Positions 38,584 through 60,813 of a stretch of 64,000 nucleotides of DNA are shown here, piece by piece; position 1 is the stretch's first letter, and each line of letters begins with the position of its first letter. Origin of the DNA: Botryllus schlosseri (Eukaryota); NCBI GenBank assembly GCA_051294905.1, contig CM119371.1, forward strand, positions 20,090,001 through 20,154,000, in the 5' to 3' direction. Position numbers and translations under genes: made by a program. The notes beneath the pieces were generated by a model. The model ran no database searches and was not told the DNA's origin. It was given only the letters and a program-made list of their open reading frames with translations.

Positions 38584-38749
38584 AGAACTTTGGTGATTGG
38601 CACAACGCCTTCAATTGCCCATGACTGACCATGAATTTTTCTATCTTATCATAATCATTACGAAGATAGCATATATGATTATGATAAGATAGAAAAATTC
38701 ATGGTCAGTCATGGGCAATTGAAGGCGTTGTGCCAATCACCAAAGTTCT
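38584..38749. repeat. Perfect inverted repeat, 75-bp arms (38584-38658, 38675-38749) with a 16-nt loop
   Basis: Arms are exact reverse complements; absent from the paralog at 54570-54680. Confidence 0.95.
38709..38747 (-). CDS. Secreted cationic Cys-rich peptide C1, exon 3 (NFGDWHNAFNCP*)
   Basis: Acceptor acatttgtcag, phase 0; stop TGA at 38709-38711; same frame and stop in paralog 54638-54676. Confidence 0.7.
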   Translation of the reverse strand, partial: NFGDWHNAFNCP

Positions 38750-39026
38750 GACAAATGTTATATTAAAATCTCGTTGCATCACTGACTTCCGTATTCATTT
38801 CTTCGTTGCTAAAACTTTACTGATTACTAGTTTTATACCCGAATGTCGTCAAGGATACCTGGATAGTATATCCTAGTATGTATTAATTACTTCTGTGTGT
38901 CACTATATTTAGATACTAACAATGTGATGACATTGTATATGAAAACTATTTGAGAAAAAGCTGATCACTAATGCTTGATACCGTCTTATGTGTACTCGGA
39001 GATCAACAAGCACTGTTGTTATTTAC

Positions 39027-39156
39027 CTGACATTGTCTCAAGTGTTTCTTCGTTTTCTTGCACTTCCTGATAGACGGTTTAATCCATCCAGACTTCGAAC
39101 AGAAATGTTCCCGTTTGTTCAGCTTCTTTGACAAACAATATGGTGTACAGAGACCT
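39027..39156 (-). CDS. Secreted cationic Cys-rich peptide C1, exon 2 (R-GLCTPYCLSKKLNKREHFCSKSGWIKPSIRKCKKTKKHLRQCQ)
   Basis: Acceptor gttttcttgcag; donor CAG|gtaaat; 130 nt, phase 2 to 0; identical structure in the paralog. Confidence 0.85.
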
Positions 39157-39536
39157 CTGCAAGAAAACAGCACATGAATTTAGTATGAAGTGTCATCAAA
39201 TCGAAACAATTACCAATGTATTGGAGGCAGGTGTACCAACTGCTGGCGATTCAGTTAATCAGAAACATTTAGAGACTGTCAATTATTTCAAGTTGGCACA
39301 TGTACCTAAAATGTTCCAGCGTACCCACATATACTAAATATCAAGGAAATTAGGAGAATAATTATTTTTTCTTTGGCCATATCTGTTCGGTATTAGCGAC
39401 AAATGCAATCTTACATTCTCGATGATATGTGTTGCCTGTACTTTTCCATTGAATTGTCTATCTAAGTTAGAAAGCATAGAATCCGAGTTGTTAGTCACAG
39501 ATGTTATTTTCTATATGCATCGATATCAATACATAC

Positions 39537-39652
39537 CTTTCCAGTAGTCTGACATTTTTCGATTTGTTCCTAGGCCTGCGGGCCACGGTGCAACGAATTT
39601 CATGACATATCAAGACGCAAGTCAATGCGGCGAGAATGATAGCTATTCTCAT
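39537..39652 (-). CDS. Secreted cationic Cys-rich peptide C1, exon 1 with signal peptide (MRIAIILAALTCVLICHEIRCTVA-RRPRNKSKNVRLLE)
   Basis: aacATG at 39652; upstream acceptor catcgtctacag (39669-39670); donor AG|gtatgt; 116 nt; three exons join to a 94-aa ORF. Confidence 0.85.
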
Positions 39653-40959
39653 GTTGAAATGTTAAGTCCTGTAGACGATGTAAATGCAAATATTGATGTA
39701 TTGTAAATCACGTTTTTATTAGGAATGTGATAAATAGCATCAAGTAGATATTTTACGAGGTGGAGTCGCAAATCTTTAGTTGTTGCTCATTGTGAAGTCA
39801 TTGTTCATTGTTGAGTTACGATTCAAACGTTGATGAAATTAGTTGTTGCGGCAATTTTGCATTACGGCTATATCTCTGTATCCTCGCCAATTTCCAATGT
39901 CGGCTGTGGTAAGTTATTGCATAAATGTCATAAGATTCCGGCTACGAGGCATTTCCTGCATATTTTATGCTTCTGGATTTGAAATCATCTTAATTAAATA
40001 TAGTAGATATAATACATATATCGTGGCTATGGGCTATCCATGGGGGCAATTATTAAACTCATGAAAATGCACAGATCTGGCTACATACATATCAGCAGAA
40101 TAATATGGTTACGGAGGTAAAGATCCGCGTTTAAAAGTTGAAGCCATAATTATTTTACCAGCGCAATGTACCATTGTTTAAGATTCCGAAAACGAAAATT
40201 GTTTTATGTTGTGATAAGAATACCGCACACGATTCATGGTGACGTGATGCTCAGAACAAAGCTTTTCTACGATTTTGCTGATAATTTGGAGATAAATTAC
40301 CTGGAGCGTAGGCTACGCCGCGTGTTATACCAGTTCATATTCGATTGACTGTATTTTAAGGTACCTGCGAGGCAAGCAATACCGGAAATTCTCCTCAGAT
40401 AGCACGAAGTGCAACATTGCTTACAATCACTATGGCACTATCAATGGTGCGTTGGAAATTTGAACGCGACCTTATGATATTATATTGATGATTGTGGCTG
40501 CACTACGTATCCTAGACTCAAGACAAGAGGTCCCAAACACGCGGCCCGCGTCGTCATTTTATATTTTGAAATATTCGACAATATTTAACTGCTACACATA
40601 TATTTCTGTAGCTCTGAGAAGTTAAAATTCGCCTTCTCCAAAACCCTGAGACTGCTCATCAAATTTCACCATCACATCACTTTAAAACGTTACCATGCGG
40701 TGGAATATATGCTTTTACGTCATATCAACCTGTTTATGATGGTGGAACATGACCCGCTGAGGATTCGTGGCAAAAAATTGTGATTGGACTTGGGCGCGAC
40801 TTTTTTGTGGAATTACTCGAATTCGGAGTAAATGGGTGATAAAATAAAAATGAATCGACTTTAGTTGCATCAAACTTTACATTTGAAGAGTAGATTGCGA
40901 CTCAAAACGCCGTGACTAGGTGCGATCACGAACACAACAAACTATCAGACTGCTATGGG

Positions 40960-43379
40960 CATAGGCACCGACTTTTATTTTTGCATGGGGTGGCGGCAAG
41001 CACGTAGCCGGGGGGGGGGGGGGTGTCAAAACCCCCTCCTTTTGAAACGCAAAACCCCGTCCTTTGAAAATCACCATTCTGACGCTAATGTTCAGTTGCA
41101 TTTCAACAAGTCGTATTATCAGTGGTACGCGGGGCCGCGACCAACTAGCGAGATTCGTATGTGCACGCATATTGCATCGCACAATGCAACGCGACGGGAT
41201 CTCCCGCTGGCATGATTGCGGAATTAGGTCATTGATTGCCGCGCACTCGGCATTCGTCGCTGGACTGAGCAGTAACACGGCGCCCGATAATTCTGGAACA
41301 CGAAAGACAGACACAAATTGTGATTGGAAACGTGCACGGCCAATCAGTATTGATCCCTTACCGCCAACACAATTGGTTTTGAGTAGCTCGCATCGCGACA
41401 ATTGGTTGCTGATTACAACATCGATTTTGACTGTATTGCTGCATTTCCCGATCTACGTTCGCAAAGTATAATTGGATTAATATTATGGGCACTGGAATAA
41501 ATTCCAACTAGCAGGCATACGCAATAACACATTGTTCAACTTTGCGCTCCGATAATATTTATCACAAAAATGGTTCACAAAATATTTTTAACGCGGCTTG
41601 CGGCGCTCATCGATGCAAATAATGCACTTCAATTTGCAGAAGGTGGACGTATATTTGGTAGTCAAATCGCGATAGGAGATGGTGTTTCTCAGAGGTCGCT
41701 ATGAAATCTACGTTTCTAACGATGAGGTCGAATCTGTACATCTGATAAGGAACGTAAGTTTGCTGAAATCAGCATCAGCACGCTGTGCGAAATACATAGT
41801 AGTGATCAATTTTATCGGACTGTACAATCGGCCGGCAAGTTGCGCTGATAACGAAATTGCAGACATGCCGCAAACCTGCAATAATTACAATTACAGGGTG
41901 CGCTGGTCATACCTAAATACCCAGATTCGGCAATGGCAACGAGCACAATTTGTTCAGACGCGGGCATACGTTTTAATCAAAACGATACATAAACAGTAAA
42001 CACAAACAATATTACACTCTGAGATTGTTACTGTTTGGCGAAAGGCCTGCATGCGGACGCGCTAAATCAAACCACCGACGATAGTGCACATGAGATGTCG
42101 ATGAGCCATTTCGCATACAAATGATTCTCACTAATTTGCAGTACGCAGCATCGATAATATGAATTAGTGAATTGGCATTTCAAAAAGGACGGTATTTTTA
42201 GTTATAAATGAGAAACTCCCTGGCTACGCACATGGGTTTTTTTATGCCGACAACGTGCTGGTTAATATCAGCCCCGGGCCGTAGGCCCCGATCAGCCAGT
42301 CGAATTTGATCGTAAAATGATGCACTTTTAATTTTCCACGTGTTATTGCAGTAAGAGCAATATGGGCGCATGCCGCGACCTTATCATTAGAAATACATTT
42401 CCCAAAGCTGTGAAATTCGAGCCGCGATATGACTGCGCTCGATATAGTCCGTTCACAAATAAAGTTTATTGGAACATAGAAGGTTTCCGTTGAAACTAAT
42501 CGAATGAATTCAGAATTTGCGTCACCGAGAATCTCGTGTTGCATCAATTTTGACAACGTAATTCAACGCCGTGCACTGCACAATGCGCAGTATTAATAAC
42601 AAATCAAGCACTGACAAGCTGACAAGTGACACCGAGGGAATACGAGGGCATAAAGCAGACAAGAATTGGTAGCCTGGATGATAGCAAACGAGAAAGCGCG
42701 CATCTAATCAATAATTCCCCGACTTGCCTACAGCACAATGGTGTTCCAAGTATGACATCGCGACAATTGTTTGTACATTATAACGACGTTTGAGCTGCAT
42801 TGTTGCGTTTTCCGATAAAAGTTGGCAAAGCCTTGTTAGAGTAATGAATATGCGCACTGTGCGCAGGAATGACATTCAATTCGCAGGCATACACAAGCAC
42901 ACTGTCCTATATTTCGCGCTCCAAGCCTCCGATTGAAGAGACTATCACGGAACTAACTCAAGAATTATTTTGTAAACGAATATGGGCGCAAATACAATTT
43001 AATTAGGAGAAGGAGAACGTGAATTTGCTCGTCTGGTCGAGAGGAGATGGTGTTTCTCAGCGCAAGCGTGTCGAAATCGACGTCGTAAACGAGGTTGCAC
43101 CGATTGTCTGATTATTACCACGGATTACAATTTATCGGTGCGTTTTAAGCACTAGTTCGTCGTCGCCAACGAAGCTGCGTATTCAATTATTCGCACGCGT
43201 ATCGGTGAATGATAAATAGTTGACATTTACGCGCTTTCACGGACTCGCTAATTGACAGCGCTGATGATTTGAAATCGCAGACGGCGGGCGTTTTATCCTA
43301 TTGTATGGGGTGGCCGCCACCCCATAAATGGGTCATGGGGTGGCTGCGCCACCCCGCCACCCGTAACTCGGCGCCTATG
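40960..43379. mobile_element. 2.4-kb non-autonomous TIR element (CATAGGC termini; hAT- or P-like)
   Basis: CATAGGCACCGA / TCGGCGCCTATG; perfect 8-bp TSD GCTATGGG (40952-40959, 43380-43387); probable further nested element 40997-42234 (CGTAGCC/GGCTACG ends). Confidence 0.85.
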
Positions 43380-43922
43380 GCTATGGGGAAAAATATTATA
43401 TCAAAAGGTCGTAGCTTGCGTTGCGTAGCGTATTTAGCTATCTAAGCAGGTCGAAAAGACAATTGCAATCGTTGCTATTCTGCTGCCTCCTTGACTTACA
43501 TCCTATGCCATCTTGGGTTTGTTTATCCAAGTTATTATCGGCAATTAAAGATGGCGAGTGAGGTATTGGTACGCTTCATCGCTGTAACAATAATGGATTC
43601 CTCGGCGATTGGACTGTTTTATTACTATGGTACATTTATCATTATATTGAAGTAATTATTGATCAGTTCCGATAATAGAAGGCAAATCTAACTCCGATGC
43701 ATGCACGTCACGATGCATTTGTACACTAGCAAGGTGTCTACAATTATTTTTTTGTTACAAACTATGCCAAGTACAACATAAATTTATTCAAAATTTTGAA
43801 AATGTGATTTTTTTCGTGTCAGGCGTGAATTCACAATAGTAAATCACATTTCCACGGTGTTTGTGGAATGCCAGTCTGCAAGGTCCCGTCTAATAATGCC
43901 TTCTTGGAAATACATTATATAC

Positions 43923-44301
43923 TCGGGTTACCAAATTTTGAAAATCTGAAAATAGGACACTTTTTCAGAATTTTCAGACTTGCAAAACCGGAGAAGAATT
44001 CTCAGAAAACGGTAAATTTTTCCCACTTTCCCAACTTTCTCGCTCAGCGCCCGAAATATCGACAGGTGGTTGACTAAAAGAAAAGGTCAACTCTCCGCCC
44101 AGCTCCCGAAATACCCGCCAGAGCGTCGTTCGGTGCTGATTTAAGGCATATCAGTCTCATTTTGCTATAAATATGACCTACATTCTCAAAAAATAGGACA
44201 AAATCTCAAAAAGGAGGACAAAAGGGCGTCCTCCGAGGACACTTTCAAATAAGTCAAAAAAGAGGACAAATCCTCCTAAAAAGAGGCGTATGGTAACCCT
44301 A
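43923..44301. mobile_element. TAGGGTT-terminated hAT-type MITE with AGGAC repeats
   Basis: TCGGGTTACCA / TGGTAACCCTA; perfect TSD TTATATAC. Confidence 0.85.
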
Positions 44302-45244
44302 TTATATACCCCTGTTATTGGTGCTGCGGCCCGCGAAGCCATCAAAAACCAGGAAATTGGCCTGCGAGCATATTTGAGCTCGAGACCTCTGCTCAAGGCC
44401 ATGACACAGTTGATGTTACCAGTTAATATTACATCATAGGATGTCTGGTCGACCTAAGCTCAATTGCTAGTCAGATTGGAGCATCGGTTTGTACATGTGT
44501 ATAAATTCTATAGCTCGTCAGTACGGTTTAAAATTCAATCAAATATCAAAGTTTTGCGTTTTGATTTTCAGCGCGACTAAACTTCATTTCACACTCCCGA
44601 ATTCATGTTCAATCGTTACAGATTTCGTACAGATTAGGTACCGAGTCTAAAGCTTATAAGTCGATGGCTATGGATTCGAAACATAAACGTACGGGACTGA
44701 AATACATAACGATGGCGGCATATCGCAGCGAAATTGAAAATAAACCAATTACGTCACTAACAATACGTCATTTGTGGTATTAATTTATCTATCAGGCTAT
44801 ATGAGGTGGAACTGATTCATGCAATTACTGATATACGACATAGTACTCGTCAGTGGTTTGACTCGAGACAGCGATCTGTCGATATATTGCTTCTAGCAAT
44901 GTCGTTAGGTCTGTCTTCTGCCATATTTTTGAAGCATAGGATTTACAATCACTGCATGGTAGGCTATGAGTGAATCATATATCTAAACTAACTGACAGAG
45001 TCGACTGGTTGAGGTGATTGCAATTCTGCAAAAAAAAGTAATTTTTCCGACGACACCACGTCAATTTCTCTTTAATGCGGGTTTGTCTAATTGACATTTG
45101 CAGGAGGGGAAAAAGGGAAATTGCGCACGTACTTCGCCCTGGAATTATTACCGGGAAAGAAACCAGAGCTGAGGCTGTTTCTTGGCGAAAACGAATGTTA
45201 AAAATAGAAAAGCCGATGCAATATTCAAGTCGGTGTGATAGAAT

Positions 45245-45697
45245 TAGTGTTGCATTCAAAACAAAAATCAATTTGAAACAAACATGTATAAATCAAGGCC
45301 CAATTCCAAACATGTTTTTTATTGTTTTATTTTTTCTTATAAGCCATGACGTTCCTAATATTCGATTGTGACGTCAAAATGAATTGACATTTACAATCGA
45401 AAATGTAGGTTAAATATAGCTCCTCTGACGATTGTACTATTAATGTTGAAACGACTATTTTGAGGGTTCCGACCATCCCATATCAATAAACATCGGCTAT
45501 ATCGAGTGGTAATTGTCCGTAGGGTCATACAACATGTTTTTTTGAAAGTATTTACACAATTATGGCAAAATTTTACAACCTGGAAAATAAAAAATAAAAA
45601 TTGAAAAGACCTTTGTTTAAAACACTGTTTAAAACATATTTAATACATGTTTAAAACAAAGTGTTTTAAAACACAGTTTGTTTTAAATGCAATCCTG
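45245..45697. mobile_element. MITE absent from the paralogous block
   Basis: Ends TAGTGTTGCATTCAAAACAAA / TTTGTTTTAAATGCAATCCTG; TSD GATAGAAT vs AATAGGAT; empty site GATAGGAT at ~60650-60657. Confidence 0.75.
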
Positions 45698-46478
45698 AAT
45701 AGGATACGTTCGAACTAGCACTTCGGTGGTAACATTGAGTCATTACTACAGCTCTAAAGTAACACTGATCAGATTAGACATATCATTTGATTATTGAAAT
45801 AAGGCGATCGATCAATTTCTGGGGTGGTGATCTCGACGCCTGCAAAATCACAGATGACGCTACAAATACGAGCAATCTACGAACATTAACTCCGTTACCA
45901 TGATGCGGAGGCTCTTTTACACAGTGATACTGACAATTCCTATTATAATTTTTTTGCAAACTTATTACCTTAAACCGTTTTTTACTTTTCAAAATCTAAA
46001 TTTTACCAACTACTTAGGTTGGCCTGAAAAACTCTTCAAATAGTGGCTAATCCAAGTACCAGATGGCAAAACAGACCTGAGTACTGCTGTATCCAAAATT
46101 CGCTACCCTAAACTACAGCCAAACCCACGGGATCGATAAATGTACGTGACTAATTTGCGAACGCGATAACAGACTGGAGAATATAAACACAGCGTCTTAT
46201 GTAAAAAGAGTTATTGACGCAACCAATCATGTTAGCCTATTCAGTGGCATATCCGTGACTTTAACCGGTAAGATATCTATAGTATTTTAGTATGTCTATA
46301 TTTAACTCGGATCAAGGCTTGCACCTGTATTTATGTATGTATAAGGGGTTTTATGGTGCTCGACTAGTAGGATATTGTGCACCAGGCCTGAGGGAGCTTT
46401 GAATCAGATATGTCTACACAAAACAACATATTCTGCGGCCTTTGTGTGTGTGCAAGTGTGGATTCTATGTCTCTATGG

Positions 46479-48061
46479 CAGGGGCGGGCGGGCAATTTCT
46501 CCGGTCGGCGGGACGGTTATGGGAAAATGAAGCACATTAGATAATGCTATCGGAGGAAAAGTCAATGTCGATCAGTGTAAGAAGCGAAATAATCTTTTGA
46601 CTGACTGAAATGACCAGATTTTCAGTTCTTTTTTTTTTGGTAGCTATTGGATCTTCATTTTCCATATCTTGAGAGATTTGTGTACATCTTTATACAAGGT
46701 GACCAGAAAGCCGGTGTATGATGGTTCTTTCAGTTAAGTCAGTGATATCAGTCCAAATCTCTGTAGTGAACACAAATATGCAATCATTCCATATTCGTCG
46801 ATAGCCTATTCCAACTTGCTGGAATTTCTTTTCTTCTCTACAGCAGCACTCCCCTTCCAAAAGCATTATCTAGGAGGCATGATGGTATAAAATCCTCCAC
46901 AATATGTGATTTGGCTTTCTCAACTTCATTCTAAGTAATTGGACCTTGGCATTACTTTGCTGCTTAGCAGATCTTTTTGCTTCTCACAAAGCATGACATG
47001 CAACATTGCCATTATGATCTCTTTTTGGATGCAATTTATCTATCTTTAATATGGGTGCATGAATGTGATGTGCCACTGAACTTCTCAAGTTCGAATGCGC
47101 CACCACAATGCTGACACAGTGACACAAAACAAAACTCAGAATCCAGATTAGTTACCTTCACAGGAGCGACTGAGCAAGGTAAAATTGTTCAGTATTCCAT
47201 TTTCATTGTTCTTTATATCCTCGAGTTTCGGTTTCTCTCCTGCATAAGGAGCTTTATTTGCTTTCTTCAATAACGCAAGTCATTTTACTGCACAACAAGA
47301 CTAGAATATTGAGGGTAAATGCCTTGTTAGAAGATCACAGTTGTGATGACTGTGCATAAATTCGGTACAATACTGTGGTTCCGTGAATTTCTAAATATGG
47401 CACGTTTATTTTCACACTGGCTTGGCGGTAAGTGACATGTGGTTGGTAGTTAGTAAGTTACAAAAGTCATGCTTATTGTTAAAGATTTTGGTTGCAGCAA
47501 AAAGTACTGGTCCGGCTCTGGCCGTATCAGAAAAAGTACTGATCCGGCTCCGATCCGGCCGAAATTGAAAAAATCCGGCAGGATATCCAATTCGGCTAGG
47601 TCCATGCTCCGCAGTAATCCACATATACAAGGAATAAATCTTATTTAATGTAAGCTTTAAGTTTAAAGCATAGAGACCAAAAACAGTATTTAATGAATTT
47701 ATTAACAGTAGGCCTAGCTGTTGAAGTCTCAGACATGAGTTGTCAACATGTTCTTTGAGCTCTGGCTGCATGTCGTATGTAGAAAACCTTAGTAAAGACT
47801 GCACAGTGAACATGAACATCAGTTATATTGGACCGCAGCCTTGTCTCGTTAATGACCATGGTCGAAAATATATGTATACAATATGTAGACCGGAACAGAG
47901 CAAATAGTTTCATGTCCATCTTTCTCAGGTTGACAAACTTGGATTCATTCTGTGACGCATAAAATTTGTCCATGCTTACGGAATGGAATTTTACTTTCAG
48001 AGTAGAAACTCTCTGCATGCCTGTCAAAATCCTTTCACCAGCCGTATGTTGCCAGTCCCTG
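46479..48061 (-). mobile_element. hAT (Charlie/Buster-like) element with decayed transposase at ~46600-47300
   Basis: CAGGGGCGGGC / GCCAGTCCCTG; TSD CTCTATGG vs CTCCATGG; empty site 63896-63903; minus-strand fragments KAKSHIVEDFIPSCL and SLQ...TDITDL resemble KxxKPHTIGExLIxP and FSLQLDESTDI motifs. Confidence 0.75.
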
Positions 48062-48996: not shown

Positions 48997-49629
48997 CGAT
49001 ATCACCCAAGCGATTGCTTCGGGTTCGTTTTCGGCATGTCAACCATTATAATTTACATCATGTACAAAATAACTCACTTATACCCTTGCCAATGCTAGTT
49101 TCGATCAAGTTTTGGAGATTGCGGTGAACTGTGACGTCATTACGTTTACTCTGCGTTTGGAATCATGACGTCATGTGCTCGATTTTGCAGCGAGCTTTCT
49201 ATCCATTATGACTTTAGCACAGTTGGTAATCGGATATTATTTTAACTAGCTCTTAAATTCTCTCTGTACTCCAGATCACCGTGTGCCGGATGTGCCAATC
49301 TTTCGGAATGGTCTCCCCCAACGTGTACTTGCAGATGACAGGAGCGTGAGAAAAGCGAAGAGTATATGATTGCGGTCGCAAAATGGTGGGTTCATGTTAA
49401 ATATTCAACACATCCCATATTCCAAATTGAATTGATTAGCTATTCTTCGTCTGTATTTTTCAGAGTAAACGGGTTAAAATTTAGTTGCCGTAAGATAGGC
49501 TACTGTAAAACAACTGTTGTTGTTGTGGCGGGGCGTCAAATTTTTGTATGCAGGACAAATACAGTAAAATAAACTAAGCACCGCACCAGGCGCGACTGGT
49601 GAAAGAATAACCAGTATTATTACCGAATA
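48997..49629 (+). repeat. ~630-bp dispersed repeat, copy 2
   Basis: Aligns with 30340-30966. Confidence 0.85.
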
Positions 49630-49809
49630 ACTGCAGAGTGTGGACCAGGGGTCGGCAACCTGCGGTCGTACGGTAGCATGCTGTCGTAGAATGAAATTTG
49701 TGAGGCCCTGGACACGTTATTCAATTAGTATAAGTTGGTGGTTGTCGACAGGAAAATTTATTTCACGAATTGACTCCGGAATTCTGAGAGAAAAAGTATT
49801 CTTTTAGGA

Positions 49810-50102
49810 CAGTGATTCTCAAACGGGGGGCGTGAAAGCGTCTGAAGGGGGCGCGAAACTGCCCTCAACTGTGATTTTCGTGCTCCACGCACTTTGCCTC
49901 CAGTTCGTGCTTATTGCACTGTGTATAGTTAAAATTTCATATTTGAGAATTCTCTAATCAACACTCATAACCTTCCATGCCATCAAATTATCCGTTGAGA
50001 TTGCCAGCATTCTAGTTGCGTTTTATGATATGGAGATAAATGGGGCACAAACATTTTACTATCATAAAGGGGGGCGTGACGAAGCAAGTTTGAGAACCAC
50101 TG
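49810..50102 (-). mobile_element. hAT-type MITE (~290-bp family)
   Basis: CAGTGATTCTCAAAC / GTTTGAGAACCACTG; reverse complement aligns with 14287-14572. Confidence 0.8.
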
Positions 50103-50129
50103 TTCGAGATTCAATTGATCTGTAAATTT

Positions 50130-50767
50130 TCTTCCTGCTTGCTGCGTTTCAATTCGACTTCATTTTTCGAGTTTAATATATAAATAGCTGGTTCGTGGTA
50201 TAGAACTTGAATATAGCTTTCAATACAACATCCATTGTAGCAGAATATTTAATAAACTCCAAAACTTTTCGGGTGCCTCTTTTCAGGAGTTAAAGGCACA
50301 CTAAAGGGATTTAAACAGATTTGAAAGCAGAACCAAAAAGTTGAAGTATGACGCAACCATCAAATCACATACCATGAGATTCGCATTGTAACAATGGCAA
50401 CAATAACAAACTTTGACGTATACGGTACTATAGTAGCAGCATATGCAATTTGTAAATAAACAGTTACAGTACAAACACGAAACAAAATAAACTAATGAGA
50501 AATTTGTAACTTATAGAGGAAATCTTTTTGTCTACATAAAATAGGTTTGGTCAATTGAATAATGGTTGACTCCAACACTTTTAAATGAAACAAAGATCTT
50601 CCTCGTGCAATTACAGTGAACATATTGTCATTATACCGTTGTGCACAGGCGAGCTGTTCACTCAAATGTTGACCAATCGACGACGCATATGCTTGGTAAT
50701 CGTCACAATCCCCAACTCGATCACAATGCAAATTTCTATGCTGATTTTGGGGGGTTCAAAGACCATG
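50130..50767 (-). mobile_element. Penelope-like retroelement 3' fragment (GIY-YIG C-terminus, ORF 50492-50731); related sequence resumes at 52725-52865
   Basis: SSIGQHLSEQLACAQRYNDNMFTVIARGRSLFHLKVLESTIIQLTKPILCRQKDFLYKL fits the PLE endonuclease tail pattern (SxIxxHL...FxI...LxxLExxxI...PxLCxQK); AAGTATGACG motif repeated at ~50345 and ~52845. Confidence 0.8.
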
Positions 50768-50775
50768 AACAGGAT

Positions 50776-52716
50776 CAGACATGGGGTAATCGCGATTAGT
50801 AATCGTAATCGATTACGACGATTACAGCATTGTCAAGTAATCGTAATCGCAATCGATTACAGTCGAAAAAATCCCGAAGTAATCGTAATCGTAATCGACT
50901 ACTTCCCATATTTAATCGATTTCTTTGTGAAAGAACGATTACTTTTTATTTGTACAAGGCTTGTGACATAAACTGAACACTCGTGAACAAGGAAGAGATA
51001 TTATACCAGTTATTGAGAGCACAAACTTCTGATTTTCAAATGCCACTGCTCATTATTACGTCAGAGGTAGCCTATTAGCTTTGCTCGTCTTTGCGTATAG
51101 GAAGTGTCCACACATAGTAATTGGTGTTATTGTAAGAAAGCCCACCGTGCTGTATATCGGTTTATCAATACATTTCAGACGCCACTACCTCGCATCAGGA
51201 TAATTAATCATAATCACCTCTCTGCCTAAGTTAAAATAGCAACTTTTATATTGATGTTTGGTTATGCTTAGTTAAATTATAGAATGTATAGTTCTAATTC
51301 TAGAGTTAAATGCAGTTTCACCGTTGCTGCTTGGCGTGCAGTAGGCCTATATGGTACGAACGTACAGCAGACAAAGGTTTAAAATTTTGTACTTGTCAAA
51401 TAAAACATTACGGTTTCCACAACGAAGCATTAAAATCAACAGCTCCTGATATATATCTTAACTGGCCGTCGTTTTGCCGTTTCTCGTAATGACAGCTTGC
51501 ATTACATTATCTGCATTAAGTTGAAGGCAGAATATTATGTTCACTTTCTGTTATTCTCATATTAGTCTACTCAAAACGGGCGCCAATCGCTATTTCACAA
51601 TTCTTTACTGAACATTTGGACTTGCCGCCATAGTCATTAGCGCGGGTTGTAGCTAGAATCAGGATCAAAACAGCAAAAGCGTCCCCCGACCAAACTTTGG
51701 TCTTGGGCCCCCATAGGGTAGTCAATTCGGAACTTGAAGATTTAATTTCGTCAATAATATTGGTAATTGCATTATATTGCATTTTAATCCTATCTCATCG
51801 CCCGATGGTCAGATTTACCTGAAGAGCGGGGGGGGGGGGGGGGCGTAATTCATAATTATAACATCTGGTATCATGCAATAATTACTTTATTGTATGTTGT
51901 TAATTCGTGACCTCCGGTCTGTTATATAGCCAAAAGATATCGATTGTAGTGGCCCAAACAGGAGACTGAAAGAAAAACTTCCGTGAGACGCACACACAAA
52001 TTGTCATGTCTAATGCTCTGGGTGGGTGCCCGGGTGGCATTTGCATCGTGGGCTCAGATTGGAAGGAATGGACTGTTGGTCACGCCCACCCAGCGCGGCT
52101 ATTAACAGTGAACACATACCCTAAGTTTTGGCCAATGTCTTTTTTAATAGCACACTCATTCGTGGAGTCTCATGTTGGCCGAAACTGCATATGTCTTTTG
52201 ATGTGTCGAGGAGTCGTACTGCATGACTGACACCTAAATGCCTATTATTATGAATTATGCATGCTTTATTTCTTGAGGGGGAGACGTATGCATTTCGAAA
52301 TCAAGCTATCTAGAGACATTTAAATCGCAAAGCTCAAAGAGAAATTCCGAGGAATTGGGGGTGAGGCAGTTATGGACCTGGCAAGAATGCAACTCATTGG
52401 GTGTGATAAACCGTCCTCTATAAAATAGGCGAAAGGTACATTATGACGTAACAAGGTAATGTTCCATCTTTTTTAAAGACAGTAGTTATATCATTGGGCC
52501 TTTCCAGCGCAATCCATGTATTGTCTTCCAATATAACTACTACGATGCAAAATAAATGTAATCGTGAGTAATCGTGATTACTTTTCCAATGTAATCGTAA
52601 TCGTAATCGACTACTTCCCGATTTTGCTGTAATCGTAATCGTAATCGTAATCGCGTGATTTAGAAGTAATCGTAATCGCAATCGATTACATTCATGAAGT
52701 AATCACCCCATGTCTG
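50776..52716. mobile_element. hAT-type non-autonomous element with (GTAATC)n subterminal arrays
   Basis: TIR CAGACATGGGGT; perfect TSD AACAGGAT (50768-50775, 52717-52724). Confidence 0.9.
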
Positions 52717-53327
52717 AACAGGATATAATTTATCTTTTCCTAATCAGTGCAGCAGCAGCTTTCCATTGATATCCGTTTTATCGAATTTGGCGCTCGGCAA
52801 GCCGGTCAAAAATGGCCGTAAAGTTGCGTTTGGTCAAATGGAAAGTATGACGTAACCCAAATGCAGTGCCTAGAAGTGTAGAAGTTTACTACAAGTTGGC
52901 ATATACGGAATTAAAATAAAAACAATCTGCCTGGTTAAAATGACCATTTTAGTCGAAAAACACCATGAATACCTCAAAGCACAAACAAACACGTTGATCA
53001 ATGTTCAAAACTTTATTTCTTTTTCCTGTGTGCTTGAGTAATAGTACCAACAGGATTCCTCCAATGGCAATAGTTCTGAAAAATAAAATCATTGGCAGAT
53101 GTACTTTTACTTAGAGACAATAGTCGCGTTGGGTAAATAGTATATTGTGTTTCTCAAACGTTCTTGACTCATCGCCCATGATCGCTCTCCACATGTATTT
53201 ACCCGCCTAACATTCAGAGGTAAGTAGTAGAGAATTAAATTCACTCTTGCGGAGGACTTAAGCAGTTTTTATATCGTTATGTTTCCTGGTCAAGTAGTTT
53301 TATTTCTATGCACGGCGCCAGGATGAT

Positions 53328-53726
53328 TAGAGCGCGACCGATTAACGGTTCGTCGATAATGTCGAATCGATATTATACTTTGAAATAATTATCGGTATCG
53401 GCCATTGGAGGTGAAAAAATATCGGCAGTTTTCGTGACGTCACAGCATGATGGTAGAAGTCAGAAAACTAAAATCCTTCACCGCCAGACTTGGAATATTG
53501 CTATGTTTCATATAGCTTACATTTCCAAGGTGCCCAGATGCAGACATGCTAGTTTATTTCCTGTTCAAGTATGACAATGGCTAAAACGCTGTTGAAATAA
53601 ATGCTCTCAAATTTTTAAAATGCGCCTTGTGAGGTAGATTCCACCTTATCGGAATATCGGCTGAATATATCGGTGTTTTCGGTGAAGGTGTTAGATATCG
53701 GCTTTATCGGTATCGGTCGGGCTCTA
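53328..53726. mobile_element. MITE with TAGAGC(G/C)CGACCGAT termini and TATCGG repeats
   Basis: 15-bp imperfect TIR; TSD not clear. Confidence 0.65.
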
Positions 53727-54637
53727 CATAGGATTAATGCTAAATGTTGTCTAATGTAAAATTACAGCACGACTCTTCTTTCACTATTTACTAATTATGC
53801 GGTTTGGGTGACTGAGAAGCCAGGATACACCGACTACATTAAAACCGATAAATTACAGTTGAATTCGAACGGACTATAGAATCCACTTTTCGGCGGTGTG
53901 CCAGCGACTTGGCAACTCTTCTTTCTCCGAGCGTCATATAATTCAATAATTTCTTCACCATAGCGACATTTTAATATGTATGTAATATTTGTTGAGTTTC
54001 TCGCAAATAAAAAGTTTCTTCGCGATTCGCAGTGGATAGTTTGCACGTACCCGGGGTCAATATGTTGGTGCTATGATGAATAAGCGGGGCACGCACAAAA
54101 GTCGTTACAATACGAGATGGCTTCATGGTGAAAATTGGCCGAGCTTTGCCACACAAGTTGATTTGAATTCATGAAAAGGTTTTATCGACATTGGTATCTC
54201 TTTAAAACGCAATCGGAGACAGCTTGAATGCGTAAGGGTAGAGTTGCCAGGCTACGAGACACAGGTATTTCGAGGCGAACACCTTCCGTGCTAGGACGGA
54301 AATGCGACGTGCAAGTGAAAATGCACCCCAATTTGAAATCACGTCCGCCAGACATGTTTCATAAGGCTGCGATGCGTGTAGTTGTTGTTTGCACGGTCTC
54401 TAATTCATACATGCCCGTGAAATCATAGCATACTAATATTGAGAATGCATTCTTTCCGGCTTATACGGCTTGGGTCGCGAGATGCCACTAAAACTAAATA
54501 TATAGTGTGTGTGTGTATGTGTGTCAGTGATCACGAAATCAGTTTGTAAGCATTGAAATTCGATGTTAATGATGGTAATGATGTAACCTATGCTATCTTC
54601 GTAATCTTTACGATACCATAGAAATAATTAAAGTCAG

Positions 54638-54676
54638 TCATGGACAATTGAAGGCGTTGTTCCAATCACAAAAGTT
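54638..54676 (-). CDS. Secreted cationic Cys-rich peptide C2, exon 3 (NFCDWNNAFNCP*)
   Basis: Acceptor acattcgtcag, phase 0; TGA at 54638-54640; 36/39 nt identical to C1 exon 3. Confidence 0.7.
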   Translation of the reverse strand, partial: NFCDWNNAFNCP

Positions 54677-54963
54677 CTGACGAATGTTATTTAAATATTT
54701 CGTTGCATCACTGACTTTCGCATTCATTTCTTGGTTACTAAACCAATGATTACTCGTTTTATACCCAAATGTCGTCAAAGATACTTGGATAGTAAATCTT
54801 ACAGCAGGTGTATCAGTTACATCTGTATGTCACTATATTTTGATACTAATAAGTTGATTACACTGTATATAAATACTATTTGGGGAAAAGCTGATTGATG
54901 ACTCATGCATGGTACGGACTTGTGTGAAATCGGAGATAAACATGCAGCACTGTTGTTATTTAC

Positions 54964-55093
54964 CTGACATTGTTTTAAGTGTTTCGTCGTCTTCTTGCAC
55001 TTTCTGACAGACGGTTTAATCCCTCCAGACTTCAAGCAAGAATATTTCCTTTTACTCAGCTTCCTTGACAAACAATATCGTGTACAGTGACCT
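54964..55093 (-). CDS. Secreted cationic Cys-rich peptide C2, exon 2 (G-GHCTRYCLSRKLSKRKYSCLKSGGIKPSVRKCKKTTKHLKQCQ)
   Basis: Acceptor gttttcttgcag; donor CAG|gtaaat; 130 nt; lies within ORF 54817-55110. Confidence 0.85.
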
Positions 55094-55471
55094 CTGCAAG
55101 AAAACAGCACATGAATTTAGTATAAAGTGTTATCGAATCGAAACACTTGGCATTGCAGGTGTACCAACTGCTGGCGAGATGGATAGGCCGCGAGTCACCT
55201 GTGAGTGCTTCGGCACTATTTGAACTAAACTATATACATCGCTCCCCTACAAACTTAATAAGTCGCATAGATGGCATGGATGAATCCTGCACTCTTAACA
55301 CAAAAAGTACATTGCCACAATCCGAAAGCTGTTGTAACGTAAATATTTCCTACTTCACCACAGTGATATGCCTCCATAATAATTGGCGTATTTCATCCTT
55401 TTTTAACGAATATGTTTTGTCATCAATTCCGTCATGTGTCAGGAACAATCTCACGTGGACGATACAGTTAA

Positions 55472-57563
55472 GGCCCTAAGGTACTGCTGGACTGACAAAA
55501 TTTTCAATTTTTTTTTTATTGCATAATCCTAAAGTATGAAACTAGTTCCTTTCAAAAATGTATTGCTCTTGTCTGATTTCGAATTAGAAGTATGGTAAAA
55601 TGCGATTTGAAATCCCCCATTTTCGTAGAAAGTCACCCCCCCATACAATTTCATATATTTAGACTCATTCAAAATTGTCTATAATCAGTGGTGGCCCTAC
55701 GAACGGGGGGGGGGGGGGGGGGCTGGGCGAGACTTACCGGGGGGCCCCCCTATAACTATCTATCCGTAACTTCTGCATCGGTTATTATTATCTATCTTTC
55801 ACCAACACAAAGGTTTGCCCAGGTGCTGGCTTCGGCCATGTCAAGGATAGACAACATCAAAACTAAGTAAGTCTACCGCATGGAGAGACGTGATGATTAT
55901 CGGGATACGGGACTTTTCTAACAAATGCAGTGATTTGATGATGATTGACACATCTGTACGGAATCATATTCTTGCTTCGTGCACGGATTTCCATGTTTAT
56001 TCGTCATTATCCTTGAAAAAAGCGCAAAATCCAAATAGGGGGCCCCTTCGACCAGGGGGCCCCGGGCAACCGCCCTCCTCGCCCACCCCAAAAGCCACCA
56101 CTGACTATAATCACTCTGCCGTGCTGATATTATACAATAAATGAAAGAGCCATATCTGTAATCGATGAAGCGTGGCTTTCACAACATTTAGCAGGCCAGC
56201 AGCTGTTCGCTCACCTGGGAATAGCTGCAAGCTGCCAATATTATGAGTGTTGTTTATCATATTGTATATTTTCAAGATTGCCTTGGCATATTTTGGTAGC
56301 TAATCGTTTAATTGACCGGTAAGACAAAGGCATACACTACGAAGGCATTTCGCAATAGGAAAAGATGAAACCATGCAGAAAAGTAAAGTGTACCAGTGGT
56401 TTCGGAACAGCTGAACTGAATAATCAAAGAAATCTTGTGAAAAAGATTGGAGCTTTCACCGCATTCAACATCTGCTAACGGTGGTTCGGATTCGGCGTAA
56501 TCATTTTTCCTAGCAGTTTCTACATTTTGATGCAGTCGTTCCAAAAATACTGAATTGTCTGACTGTGGCTCATCTGACAAAGGATATTGGAACTGCATAC
56601 AGACTACAGCATAAGGATTATGCAACTCAAATTAGTATCAGAATGTCATGATGAAATTGATGCTAAAAATTGTATGTTTGAAAGGTCTCGGAGGGAAATA
56701 TGGATGTAGTATCTTCACCCATACCAACTGCAATAGGTATTTTGACAATGTCGAAGTATTCTTGATATGTTATTTCATATTTACAAGATCTAACTGGTGT
56801 CCAATTCAAGGTTTGCAAATTTTTCGAATACGGTATAGCAGTTTTGAGTAAAAAAATCATCAAATCACTCATACTTTATATGACTTATTTGGCATTTAGA
56901 CACATTCAATTGTCTTCAAATTTGGCTATTTACTGATTTAAGCATGCCTGCACCATTTAAAAGCAACAGATTTCAAACACCTGCTCTACTTTCTCATCAA
57001 AATATTTTTCAATTTTCAAAGTTGATTTTCTCCCACTTCTAGTTTTTGGTAATATTGTGTCACGGGGACAAGAAATTTTGATATCAGAATACCTTCAATC
57101 CTAATCAAACTTGGCTCAGTACAAGTAGTAGGACTGTTCTACCTGCTAAGACTATTACTTTTGCTATAGGGGTTATAGTCAACTTTCTATGCTACCTATT
57201 ATCTGATTTTTATGAAAAAAAATCGAAAATTCGGCACCGTACTACTACAAAACAAATATTTCGTAAAATCGGAAGTTTCACGCATTTCAGCAGGTGCTTA
57301 GAGGCCTCAGGACACTTTATAAAGCATTGCTTAGAATATCTCAGCATCCATCAATGAGACAGGGGTTTCCCCGTGCTAATCGTCCGATTCACCTATCTCC
57401 CCCTCAATTTGGGCCCAAGGAATCATTGTGAAATGCTGAAATTTATACAGCATATAAAGTTGAGTATGAACAGCTTACAGACCAATTTTTGAGAATCTAG
57501 CATTTACTGTTAATAAAATATCGCAATTTGAAAATTTTGTGGGTCTAGCAGTACCTTAGGGCC
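55472..57563. mobile_element. Kolobok-like DNA transposon (non-autonomous or decayed) in the C2 intron
   Basis: TTAA on both sides (55468-55471, 57564-57567); ~36-bp TIR GGCCCTAAGGTACTGCT(G/A)GAC..ACAAAATTTTCAA starting with purines; paralog has a single TTAA at ~39255. Confidence 0.8.
55686..56103. mobile_element. hAT-type MITE nested in the Kolobok-like element
   Basis: CAGTGGTGGC / GCCACCACTG; TSD TCTATAAT vs ACTATAAT; GGGGGCCCC motifs. Confidence 0.8.
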
Positions 57564-57814
57564 TTAATCAGAAGAAACAGGACTGGTAATTATCTTTAAG
57601 CATGCTCCCATGCTAAATATCAAGGAAATTAGAAGAATAATTAATGTTTCTGTGGCCATATATGTTCCGTATTAGCGACAAATGCATTCATACACTGCCG
57701 ATGATATGTGTTCGCTCTGCTTTTCCATTGAGTTTTCTATCTAAGTTGAAAAAGCATAAAATCCAACTTATTAGTTACATATGCTATTTTCTATACATCG
57801 ATATCAATACATAC

Positions 57815-57930
57815 CCTTCAAGTCTTCTGACATCACTCGATTTGTTTCTACGCCTGCGGGCCACGGTGCAACGAAGTTCACAACATATCAAGACGCAAGT
57901 CAATGCGGCGAGTACGATAGCTATTCTCAT
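57815..57930 (-). CDS. Secreted cationic Cys-rich peptide C2, exon 1 with signal peptide (MRIAIVLAALTCVLICCELRCTVA-RRRRNKSSDVRRLE)
   Basis: ATG at 57930; upstream acceptor catctcgtgcag; donor GG|gtatgt; 116 nt as in C1; joins to a 94-aa ORF. Confidence 0.85.
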
Positions 57931-59970: not shown

Positions 59971-60813
59971 GTTTCAGCGCGACTAAAATTCATTTCACAC
60001 TCAAGAATTCATGTTTAGTCGTTAATAACAGATTTCGCGTCCCCTGTTTAGGCATTAAATTGTCGAGAGCTTATAACTCGGTGGCTGTGGATTTGAAATA
60101 TAAACGTATAAGACTGAAATACATATCGATGGCTGCATATCACAGCAAATTGAAAATAAATCAATTACGTCCCTAACAATACTCCATTTGTGGTAATAAT
60201 CTATCAATCTGAATGTCTGAGTTGAAACGGATTCATGCAATTACTGATATACGACATAGTACTCGTTAGTTGCTTGACTCGAGACTACGATATTCCGATA
60301 TATTGGTTCTAGCAATGTCGCTATGTTTGCCTTTTGCCATACTCTTACGGCATAGGATTTACAACCACCGCGTCGTAGGTATGAGTGGATCATATATTTG
60401 AACTAACCGACAGAGTCGATTGGTTGCTATAATGGCGATTCTGCGAAAAAAAAAAGTAATTTTCGCGACGAAACCACGTTAATTTCCTTTTATTATGTTT
60501 TTTTTTTTTCAGATGACATTTGCAGGTGTGGAAATGGAAATCGCACACATACTGGAATTATGACCGACAAAGATACCATAGCTGAAGCTGCTTCTGCGCG
60601 ACAGCGAATATTGGAAATACAAAAACTGACGCAATATTGATGTCGGTGTGATAGGATACATTTGAACGAGCACTTTGGTGGTAACATTGAGTCATAACTA
60701 CAGCTCTAAGGAAACGCCGACTAGATTGGAACTATCATTTGAATATTGAAATAAGGCGACAGATCCATTTCAGGGGCGGGGATCATGATGACTACAAAAT
60801 CACAGATGACGCT

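What the first reader, a model, noticed from the sequence alone, without database searches (positions are those of the whole stretch)
38709..57930. Duplicated gene pair for an unrecognised secreted, highly cationic, cysteine-rich 94-aa peptide
Seen: two 3-exon minus-strand genes, not recovered as whole ORFs by the track, with identical exon lengths (116/130/39 nt), canonical GT-AG sites, and no indels or stops although the flanking introns are full of indels. C1 = MRIAIILAALTCVLICHEIRCTVARRPRNKSKNVRLLERGLCTPYCLSKKLNKREHFCSKSGWIKPSIRKCKKTKKHLRQCQNFGDWHNAFNCP; C2 = MRIAIVLAALTCVLICCELRCTVARRRRNKSSDVRRLEGGHCTRYCLSRKLSKRKYSCLKSGGIKPSVRKCKKTTKHLKQCQNFCDWNNAFNCP. After the presumed signal (cleavage after TVA) 70 residues carry 20-21 K/R against 3 D/E. 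Cys spacing is CxxxC-x11-C-x12-C-x9-Cxxx(C)-x7-C. By my count 19/70 mature residues differ versus 3/24 signal residues, with only about 8 purely synonymous codon changes. Inference: a lineage-specific antimicrobial, toxin-like or matrix-binding peptide family; I cannot match it to defensins, vanabins or other families I know.
Basis: partly seen in the sequence, partly recalled or inferred. Interest (0 to 1): 0.85.

Follow-up and report, generated by a model that had tools for sequence, protein, structure and literature searches.

The report
Duplicated orphan secreted cationic peptide genes
Two neighbouring three-exon genes probably encode a small, strongly positive, cysteine-rich secreted peptide with no known relatives, perhaps a host-defence peptide, but I found no evidence that they are expressed.

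Summary
Two minus-strand three-exon ORFs (116/130/39 nt, GT..AG introns, 94 aa) sit at the stated coordinates, inside a tandem segmental duplication. They are the only two copies in the 495.5-Mb genome.

- Exons (87.4% identity) diverge as fast as non-coding flanks (85.7%).
- Amino-acid change matches a neutral simulation, so positive selection is not shown.
- With bare GT/AG rules, 138 (same strand) and 45 (opposite strand) other "intact in both copies" three-exon ORFs exist in the same 2.5 kb.

Other evidence still favours a real spliced coding gene:
- The two donors are two of the three best of 121 GT sites, and acceptor 1 is the best of 117 AG sites.
- Three of four junctions lie in perfectly conserved runs.
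- The exons have no indels (empirical p 0.013).
- Synonymous codon usage is in the top 1.5-2.6% of chance ORFs.
- The N-terminus is a textbook signal peptide, six mature cysteines are conserved, and net charge stays at +17/+18.

No relative turned up in Pfam, PDB, 1.84 billion protein representatives, metagenomes or the ESM Atlas. No RNA support was obtained.

Verdict: probably a lineage-restricted secreted polycationic peptide gene pair. The antimicrobial role is inferred. Interest is moderate.

The parts
39537..39652 (-). C1 exon 1. ATG at 39652-39650. Encodes the signal peptide (residues 1-24) and the first 14 2/3 mature codons. Donor is AAG|GTATGT.
   Evidence: The donor matches MAG|GTRAGT at 8 of 9 positions and is one of 3 such sites among 121 GT. 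The first 19 intron nt are identical in C2.
39027..39156 (-). C1 exon 2. Phase-2 start, 43 whole codons, five of the six conserved mature cysteines. Acceptor is TTTTCTTGCAG|A and donor is CAG|GTAAAT.
   Evidence: The acceptor scores highest of 117 AG sites. The 30 intron nt before it and the 19 intron nt after the donor are identical in C2.
38709..38747 (-). C1 exon 3. 12 codons (NFGDWHNAFNCP) plus a TGA stop. The acceptor TTTGTCAG|A is mediocre.
   Evidence: Acceptor score is 12; 33 of 117 AG sites score as high or higher.
57815..57930 (-). C2 exon 1.
   Evidence: 87.9% identical to C1 exon 1 with no gaps.
54964..55093 (-). C2 exon 2.
   Evidence: 85.4% identical to C1 exon 2 with no gaps. 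It is the second and last exon-2 match in the whole genome.
54638..54676 (-). C2 exon 3 with TGA stop. Carries the extra Cys85.
55178..57609 (.). About 2.4 kb present only in C2 intron 1, partly high-copy repeat. It explains the 2721-nt intron in C2 against 380 nt in C1.
   Evidence: Homology to C1 stops at 55177 and resumes at 57610. Contig word depths reach tens of thousands in bin 55504-56157.
37952..40522 (.). Core of duplication copy A, which holds C1. It pairs with 53958-55177 plus 57610-58875 (copy B). Further paired blocks are 44385-46320 with 58863-63304.
   Evidence: Self-BLAST gave 79-82% identity with gaps counted. Ungapped non-exon columns are 85.7% identical, with 55 gap events in 2037 columns.
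38584..38749 (.). Perfect inverted repeat in C1 only. Arms are 38584-38658 and 38675-38749 (75 nt, 100% complementary, 16-nt spacer). The proximal arm contains all of exon 3, its AG and 34 nt of 3' flank.
   Evidence: As RNA it folds at -139.6 kcal/mol, z -27. It is absent from C2 (alignment).
37950..38560 (.). 3' flank made of dispersed repeat sequence. It holds the only conserved poly(A)-type hexamer: ATTAAA, 740 nt after the C1 stop and 663 nt after the C2 stop, at homologous places.
   Evidence: 588 first-look candidates genome-wide, 68-76% identity. Hexamers. A 23-nt identical run at 37964-37986 covers the hexamer.

Best explanation
C1 and C2 are a genuine, lineage-restricted, tandemly duplicated pair of spliced protein-coding genes.

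How it would work. Each gene makes a 94-aa precursor. A 24-residue signal peptide (MR, then a 13-14 residue hydrophobic core, then TVA|RR) directs it into the secretory pathway. The released product is about 8.3 kDa and hydrophilic, with pI about 10.5 and net charge +17/+18. Six conserved cysteines would form three disulfides.

What seems to be selected. Selection appears to keep the reading frame, the splice signals, the signal peptide, the cysteines and the positive charge. Most other residues drift almost neutrally.

Most likely action. The peptide acts outside the cell by electrostatic binding to polyanionic surfaces. Microbial envelopes are the most likely target, making it a host-defence peptide.

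Shown: the gene anatomy, its conservation pattern, and the lack of relatives.
Inferred: transcription, secretion, disulfide pairing and the antimicrobial role.

My odds are about 0.75-0.8 that it is a real coding gene pair. Given that, the odds are a little over one half for a host-defence role.
For: 1. Splice signals.
- Both donors match the U2 consensus at 8 of 9 positions. Only 3 of 121 GT sites on this strand of the 2.5-kb block do, and 0 of 163 on the other strand. The third such site (40300) is not conserved in C2.
- Acceptor 1 is the single best of 117 AG sites.
- 19, 30 and 19 intron nt next to donor 1, acceptor 1 and donor 2 are identical in both copies.
- Three of four junctions lie in identical runs of at least 17 nt. 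Such runs cover 502 of 4343 aligned columns. By my arithmetic that gives p about 0.006.

2. Reading frame.
- There are no gaps in the 116+130+39 nt of exon. Random non-exon windows of those lengths are all gap-free with probability 0.013.
- ATG, stop, the four splice dinucleotides and the absence of a premature stop are all kept. Under neutral substitution this has probability 0.030.

3. Codon usage.
- The synonymous-only score is 0.059 (C1) and 0.020 (C2) bits per codon.
- This is in the top 1.5% and 2.6% of 271 chance ORFs of the window. It lies inside the range of 83 real HSP70/tubulin windows from the same genome.

4. Protein features.
- The best 12-residue hydropathy window has mean 3.1 at residues 5-16. 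TVA|RR fits the (-3,-1) rule. The -3 position before the ATG is a purine in both copies.
- The signal part has 5 differences in 72 nt against 31 in the mature part.
- All six mature cysteines are kept (neutral P 0.13).
- Charge is kept (P 0.10-0.27) and the hydrophobic core is kept (P 0.07-0.11).

5. Copy number. There are only two copies in 495.5 Mb and the exons are not part of a dispersed repeat.

6. Precedent. The pattern of a conserved signal with a variable cationic six-cysteine mature part and gene duplication is described for mussel MgCRP-I peptides (PMC4558851, passages read).
Against: - Exons are no better conserved than flanks: 87.4% against 85.7%.
- Differences fall 13/12/11 on codon positions 1/2/3.
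- Amino-acid divergence and the synonymous share equal the neutral expectation. There is therefore no direct sign of purifying or positive selection on the protein sequence.
- With bare GT/AG rules, 138 and 45 other ORF chains are 'intact in both copies'.
- A codon score that includes amino-acid composition places the ORFs among chance ORFs and below all 83 real windows. The training genes are acidic globular proteins, so this is weak.
- Frame 2 of the same DNA scores nearly as well as C2 on the synonymous score.
- Acceptor 2 is mediocre.
- There is no AATAAA within 600 nt of either stop.
- C2 has an odd number (7) of mature cysteines.
- The ESM Atlas recognition value of exon 2 (1521) is below the level that 91 of 100 known-family proteins reach.
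- The peptide is very hydrophilic (GRAVY -1.2), which is less amphipathic than many membrane-active peptides.
Confidence: 0.45

Rival explanations
1. A real secreted polycationic peptide with a different extracellular job. Candidates are binding to sulfated glycans or matrix (chemokine- or heparin-binding-factor-like signalling), adhesive or biomineral material, a toxin, or a reproductive protein.
For: It rests on the same gene evidence as the best explanation. The peptide is extremely hydrophilic (GRAVY -1.2; by my count 16 of 70 mature residues are hydrophobic) and has net charge +17/+18. That suits polyanion binding in general and says nothing specific about microbes. The NKS sequon and the RRPR/RRRR site straight after the signal cleavage point are conserved. 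Near-neutral change outside the cysteines and the charge fits any composition-driven binder.
Against: No domain of a known signalling, matrix or toxin family was found. There are no expression data to place it in a tissue. Tandem duplication with a conserved signal and a drifting mature part is most often reported for defence peptides (PMC4558851, passages; other titles in the listing were seen only as listing and abstract starts).
Confidence: 0.2
2. A spliced transcript whose ORF is not translated or has no function: a long non-coding RNA or a young proto-gene. Selection would act on the splice signals while the exons drift, and the ORF would survive by luck.
For: Splice-adjacent sequence is conserved while exons evolve at the neutral rate. 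That is the usual picture for spliced non-coding RNAs (general knowledge). No relatives exist anywhere. Language-model recognition is low. The 3' end is built from repeat sequence. C1 carries a 75-bp perfect hairpin over its last exon.
Against: By my arithmetic, keeping frame, ATG, stop and no premature stop by luck has a probability of about 0.013 x 0.10. The retained signal-peptide core, cysteines and charge all point the same way. Synonymous codon usage looks coding.
Confidence: 0.2
3. There is no gene at all. It is a chance ORF assembled from GT/AG sites in a neutrally evolving segmental duplication, picked out because it looks like a protein.
For: 138 and 45 alternative conserved three-exon ORF chains exist in the same block. 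Gap-free stretches of 150-290 nt occur in plain non-coding parts. Identical runs of at least 17 nt occur about once per 200 nt. Exons diverge like the flanks.
Against: The ORF-compatible sites happen to be the two best conserved donors and the best acceptor of the block. Three of four junctions lie in identical runs. The ORF starts with a textbook signal peptide. Its synonymous codon usage is in the top 1.5-2.6% of chance ORFs.
Confidence: 0.12

Closest known systems
MgCRP-I cysteine-rich peptides of the mussel Mytilus galloprovincialis (PMC4558851; passages read)
   Same: Short secreted precursors, a conserved N-terminal region with a variable mature peptide, six invariant cysteines, a basic mature peptide, expansion by gene duplication, restriction to one lineage, and a coding sequence split by small introns.
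   Different: - The MgCRP-I consensus is C(X3-6)C(X1-7)CC(X3-4)C(X3-5)C. It has an adjacent CC pair, a mature peptide of 25-38 aa and pI 8-9.5.
- Here the array is C-x3-C-x11-C-x12-C-x9-C-x11-C with no CC, about 70 aa and pI 10.5.
- MgCRP-I genes have four exons, a pro-region of about 15 residues ending in KR/RR, and the whole cysteine array in the last exon. Here there are three coding exons, no acidic pro-region, and the array is split over exons 2 and 3.
- No sequence similarity was found.
Cationic disulfide-stabilised host-defence peptides of animals in general, such as defensins, big defensins and macins (recalled, not fetched here)
   Same: Signal peptide, a small cationic mature peptide with an even number of cysteines, tandem gene copies and fast sequence turnover.
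   Different: No Pfam model of any such family matched the exon translations, even at E up to 10. The cysteine spacing matches none I can recall. The charge density (+17 on 70 residues) and hydrophilicity are higher than usual.
Nodule-specific cysteine-rich (NCR) peptides of legumes (seen only as listing and abstract starts)
   Same: Lineage-restricted and numerous, with a conserved signal peptide and a divergent mature peptide carrying a few conserved cysteines.
   Different: They are plant genes in very large families, and by my recollection have 4 or 6 cysteines in about 30-50 aa. Here there are only two copies in the genome and no sequence similarity.

Membership tests
MgCRP-I (mussel cysteine-rich peptides) | Cysteine array C(X3-6)C(X1-7)CC(X3-4)C(X3-5)C with an adjacent CC pair | tested here: not met
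   Cysteines at 42, 46, 58, 71, 81 and 93 give spacings of 3, 11, 12, 9 and 11, with no CC. The consensus comes from PMC4558851.
MgCRP-I (mussel cysteine-rich peptides) | Conserved pre-pro region ending in a dibasic convertase site before the cysteine-rich part | tested here: inconclusive
   RRPR (C1) and RRRR (C2) follow directly after the predicted signal cleavage. No pro-region of about 15 residues is evident.
Any Pfam-modelled defensin, macin, toxin or other cysteine-rich domain | Match to the family profile at or above its gathering score | tested here: not met
   The exon 1 and exon 2 translations of both copies were scanned at E up to 10. The only hits were DUF7741 (E 0.04, 14.6 bits against a cut-off of 27, C1 only) and TMIE (E 0.22). 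Only single-exon pieces could be scanned, because the spliced protein is not a contiguous window sequence.
DUF7741 (PF24888) | Profile match over the cut-off in both paralogues, and bona fide members in the genome | tested here: not met
   C1 scores 14.6 bits against a cut-off of 27 and C2 has no match. The own genome has 0 matches at E up to 1.
Twin Cx9C (CHCH) helical-hairpin proteins | Two Cx9C motifs, no secretory signal, a mitochondrial intermembrane-space protein | tested here: not met
   There is one Cx9C (C71-C81). The other candidate is Cx11C (C46-C58). An N-terminal signal-type hydrophobic core is present. There is no CHCH Pfam hit. The definition of the family is recalled.
Secreted cationic cysteine-rich host-defence peptides (functional class, not a homology family) | N-terminal signal peptide | tested here: met
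   MR, then a 12-residue window with mean hydropathy 3.1, then TVA|RR fitting the (-3,-1) rule, in both copies. This is a rule-based check; SignalP was not available.
Secreted cationic cysteine-rich host-defence peptides (functional class, not a homology family) | Net positive mature peptide with an even set of conserved cysteines | tested here: met
   Net charge is +17 and +18, pI is 10.5, and six cysteines are conserved. C2 has a seventh.
Secreted cationic cysteine-rich host-defence peptides (functional class, not a homology family) | Expression in immune or barrier tissue and microbicidal activity | not testable with these tools
   This needs RNA and bench data. The single read-laying run gave no information on expression.

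The most novel reading that the evidence does not exclude
A recently born orphan gene family with a cysteine framework of its own (C-x3-C-x11-C-x12-C-x9-C-x11-C). It would have arisen in a repeat-rich, otherwise gene-poor region and duplicated once. Selection would keep only the frame, splice signals, signal peptide, cysteines and charge. This would be a composition-selected polycationic effector whose sequence otherwise drifts neutrally. In addition, copy C1 has acquired a perfect 75-bp hairpin over its last coding exon. That hairpin could turn its transcript into a double-stranded RNA source that silences the pair.
Probability: 0.2. Interest if true: 0.6.

Novelty: new variant of a known kind. 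Interest (0 to 1): 0.4.

Why it matters
If the genes are expressed, this is an unannotated defence-type peptide family that homology searches cannot see. It would have a new cysteine framework and an unusually high charge density.

It would also be a clean two-copy case for asking how much of such a peptide is under selection. Here the frame, splice sites, signal peptide, cysteines and charge are kept while the rest changes at the neutral rate.

For annotation practice, the controls give a warning. 'Intact ORF with GT-AG in both paralogues' is by itself not evidence in a young duplication. Splice-site quality and junction conservation were the informative signals here.

Tried and rejected
RNA evidence
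- The look-up of sequencing runs listed no holder on record as RNA.
- I laid window 38500-58100 on X2, X3, X4 (contigs) and X7 (bulk RNA raw reads, about 6 in 100 of the run read).
- The X2-X4 contigs cover intron sequence (for example X2 records at 39200-39386 and 39357-39483), so they behave like genomic DNA.
- X7 depth was 0 to 0.03 on the C1 bins. It was 0 to 0.98 on the C2 bins, equally on both strands.
- None of the 15 joints shown is a predicted junction; 150 more joints were not shown.
- This gives no support and no verdict on expression.

Homology searches with exon 2, all blank
- The search for homologous proteins among longer proteins: no candidate.
- Profile of the two exon-2 peptides against 1.84 billion representatives: 0 hits at E up to 0.001.
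- PDB sequences at E up to 10: 0 hits.
- ESM Atlas: no usable hit.
- Metagenome contigs: 591 pattern matches, none confirmed.
- Earlier findings of this scan: none.
- A 43-aa query has little power for distant relatives.

Structure
- AlphaFold2 on the exon-2 alignment gave mean pLDDT 47.1 and only one helix, at residues 29-42 of the piece.
- This is too poor for a fold search, so none was run.
- The spliced 94-aa protein could not be handed to the folding or family tools, because they take only contiguous window sequence.

More paralogues
- The own-genome searches with exon 1, exon 2 and 1.2 kb of DNA found only the two copies.
- A loose tblastn and a cysteine-pattern scan of the window plus 20 kb on each side gave only retroelement zinc-knuckle look-alikes in L075 and an IGFBP-like ORF. 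Neither is related.

Other checks that led nowhere
- Upstream 5'UTR exon: the strong donor at 40300 in C1 reads AT in C2, so I rejected it.
- Clade of the organism through the mitochondrial code: no COX1 in the assembly.
- Pfam on 38 ORFs of 98 aa or more across the window: 0 families.
- Rfam on the window: 0 matches.
- The strongly conserved block 250-370 nt after the stop looked like a functional 3'UTR element. It is a dispersed repeat.


Full report
**What is there**

The window is part of contig C1 (20,090,001-20,154,000) of an unnamed eukaryotic assembly of 495,547,953 bases in 219 contigs. At the stated coordinates the minus strand carries two three-exon ORFs.
- C1 exons are 39537-39652, 39027-39156 and 38709-38747.
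- C2 exons are 57815-57930, 54964-55093 and 54638-54676.
- Both have exon lengths of 116, 130 and 39 nt, and all four introns run GT..AG.

- There are 22 amino-acid differences: 3 of 24 in the signal part and 19 of 70 in the mature part.
- K+R number 20 and 21, against 3 D+E in each copy.
- Cysteines are at 42, 46, 58, 71, 81 and 93, plus 85 in C2.
- There are 8 purely synonymous codon changes.

**Setting**

- The two genes lie in a tandem segmental duplication. Copy A is about 37045-46320 and copy B about 53152-63304, both interrupted by copy-specific insertions.
- About 2.4 kb in C2 intron 1 is present only in that copy.
- The region between and around the copies is rich in high-copy repeats (word depths).
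- None of 38 ORFs of 98 aa or more across the window has a Pfam domain, and Rfam finds nothing.
- The own-genome searches with exon 1, exon 2 and 1.2 kb of DNA find these two copies and nothing else.

**Is it more than chance?

- Exons are 87.4% identical (36 differences in 285 nt). The aligned non-exon sequence of the same block is 85.7% identical in ungapped columns.
- The differences fall 13/12/11 on codon positions 1/2/3.
- Nei-Gojobori gives dN 0.119, dS 0.224 and omega 0.53, with omega 0.44 in the mature part.
- A neutral simulation used the flank divergence and the observed transition share, and was conditioned on an open frame. It gives 25.4 +/- 4.3 amino-acid differences and 8.1 synonymous codons. 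The observed values are 22 and 8 (P 0.25 and 0.35).
- So there is no evidence of positive selection and no significant purifying selection on the residues.
- I enumerated every ATG-started chain of up to three exons (at least 240 nt) that is gap-free, open, and bounded by the same GT/AG and stop in both copies. This gave 138 chains on the minus strand and 45 on the plus strand of the 2.5-kb block.
- 'Intact with canonical sites in both copies' is therefore not a rare event in this young duplication.
- Gap-free runs of 150-290 nt also occur in plain non-coding parts.

**Evidence that still favours a real spliced coding gene**

1. Splice-site quality.
   - Of 121 GT dinucleotides on the minus strand of copy A's block, only three match MAG|GTRAGT at 8 of 9 positions. 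None of 163 does on the plus strand.
   - Two of the three are the proposed donors. The third, at 40300, reads AT in C2.
   - Acceptor 1 (TTTTCTTGCAG) is the single best of 117 AG sites.
   - Acceptor 2 is mediocre: its score is 12, and 33 of 117 sites do as well.
2. Junction conservation.
   - The 19, 30 and 19 intron nucleotides next to donor 1, acceptor 1 and donor 2 are identical in the two copies.
   - Identical runs of at least 17 nt cover 502 of 4343 aligned columns, yet three of the four junctions sit in one. By my arithmetic that gives p of about 0.006.
3. Reading frame.
   - Random non-exon windows of 116, 130 and 39 nt are gap-free with frequencies 0.19, 0.15 and 0.46. The product is 0.013.
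   - Under neutral substitution, ATG, stop, the four splice dinucleotides and an open frame all survive in 3.0% of trials.
4. Codon usage.
   - Codon tables were trained on 38 HSP70 and tubulin segments (15,621 nt) of the same genome.
   - The synonymous-only score is 0.059 (C1) and 0.020 (C2) bits per codon.
   - That is the top 1.5% and 2.6% of 271 chance ORFs of the window, and inside the range of 83 real windows.
   - The score that includes amino-acid composition does not separate the ORFs from chance ORFs. This is expected for a peptide of such odd composition. Frame 2 scores about as well as C2.
5. Protein features.
   - The N-terminus is MR, then a hydrophobic core (12-residue mean hydropathy 3.1), then TVA|RR fitting the (-3,-1) rule.
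   - A purine sits at -3 before the ATG in both copies. An in-frame stop lies 12 nt (C1) or 66 nt (C2) upstream.
   - The signal part has 5 differences in 72 nt against 31 in the mature part.
   - Retention of the six cysteines (P 0.13), of the charge (P 0.10-0.27) and of the hydrophobic core (P 0.07-0.11) is weak for each alone. All three point the same way.

Taken together I put the odds of a real spliced coding gene pair at about 0.75-0.8.

**The product**

- After cleavage at TVA|RR the peptide has 70 residues, about 8.3-8.4 kDa, pI 10.5, net charge +17 (C1) or +18 (C2), and GRAVY -1.2.
- It carries a conserved NKS sequon and an RRPR/RRRR motif at its very N-terminus.
- The cysteine array is C-x3-C-x11-C-x12-C-x9-C-x11-C. 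C2 adds a seventh cysteine four residues after the fifth.
- AlphaFold2 on the 43-residue exon-2 piece gave only a low-confidence helix over IRKCKKTKKHLRQC (mean pLDDT 47.1).
- The full spliced protein could not be given to the folding or family tools.

**Comparison with what is known**

- No Pfam family matches the exon translations. The best hit is DUF7741 at 14.6 bits against a cut-off of 27, in one copy only, and that family has no match in the genome.
- The PDB, 1.84 billion protein representatives, the longer proteins of the 5.8-billion-cluster set, the ESM Atlas and metagenome contigs gave nothing.
- A 43-aa query has little reach for distant relatives. Remote homology is not excluded.
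- The closest described analogue that I read about is the mussel MgCRP-I family.
   - Shared features are secretion, a conserved leader, a variable basic mature peptide with six invariant cysteines, and expansion by duplication.
   - Its defining array C(X3-6)C(X1-7)CC(X3-4)C(X3-5)C, its 25-38-aa size and its four-exon plan are not met here (PMC4558851, passages).
- This is therefore not a member of that family. It is of the same general kind.

**How it most likely works**

- Shown: the gene anatomy and its conservation pattern.
- Inferred: the precursor enters the secretory pathway, the signal peptide is removed, three disulfides form, and the polycationic product binds polyanionic targets outside the cell.
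- The combination of a conserved leader, conserved cysteines and charge, otherwise free drift, and tandem duplication is most often reported for host-defence peptides. I commit to that role at about 0.45 overall.
- A different extracellular role (glycan or matrix binding, signalling, toxin, reproduction) gets 0.2.
- A spliced but non-coding or functionless proto-gene gets 0.2.
- Pure chance gets 0.12.

**Expression**

No RNA holder was listed. The one bulk RNA run that was laid, at about 6% sampling, had essentially no reads on the exons. I treat this as no verdict.

**A side feature worth checking**

C1, but not C2, has a perfect 75-nt inverted repeat at 38584-38658 / 38675-38749 with a 16-nt spacer. 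One arm contains all of exon 3. As RNA it would fold into a long perfect hairpin of -139.6 kcal/mol. It is far younger than the duplication, or it is an assembly artefact.

**Verdict**

It is a new cysteine framework within a well-known kind of gene. Interest is moderate.

Noticed in passing
window 38584-38658 and 38675-38749: A perfect 75-nt inverted repeat with a 16-nt spacer, present in C1 only. It duplicates exon 3, its acceptor AG and 34 nt of 3' flank in reverse. As RNA it forms a hairpin of -139.6 kcal/mol. It is either a very recent event or an assembly artefact, and it is a possible source of double-stranded RNA.
   Followed up: partly
window 37950-38560: The 3' flank of C1, and the homologous 53958-54568 of C2, is made of two parts of a dispersed repeat. 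There are 588 first-look candidates in the genome at 68-76% identity, and the two parts are sometimes adjacent elsewhere. The only conserved poly(A)-type hexamer (ATTAAA) lies at its far end.
   Followed up: partly
window 9948-10058 (-) and L072 4701-4802 (-): Two related cysteine-rich ORF pieces (RCCDVCSKQLY.KCGGPFGI.GTC). The L072 copy gives a weak IGFBP N-terminal domain match (PF00219, E 0.0023, 19 bits, below the cut-off of 28). This may be an exon of an IGFBP-like gene and a degenerate copy of it.
   Followed up: partly
L075 1250-1800 and 5139-5342 (+): Zinc-knuckle (CCHC-type) gag-like ORFs of retroelements, 10-20 kb beyond the window's end. They produced the only weak tblastn look-alikes of exon 2 (E 0.002-0.02 in a 104-kb database). 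These are chance similarity of Cys/Lys/Arg-rich sequence.
   Followed up: yes
window 39669-39670: The second-best acceptor-like site of the block (TTTACATCGTCTACAG|G) lies 17 nt before the C1 ATG, and its AG is kept in C2. It hints at an upstream non-coding exon. The only strong upstream donor (40300) is not conserved in C2.
   Followed up: partly
window 4639-4837: A direct tandem duplication of about 100 nt at 99% identity (4639-4738 against 4738-4837).
   Followed up: no
window 40462-53541 and 55504-56157: Contig word depths in the thousands to hundreds of thousands in three runs. Most of the sequence between the two gene copies, and inside C2 intron 1, is high-copy repeat. A long C run at about 55705-55722 attracts poly-G loose ends in the RNA run.
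   Followed up: no
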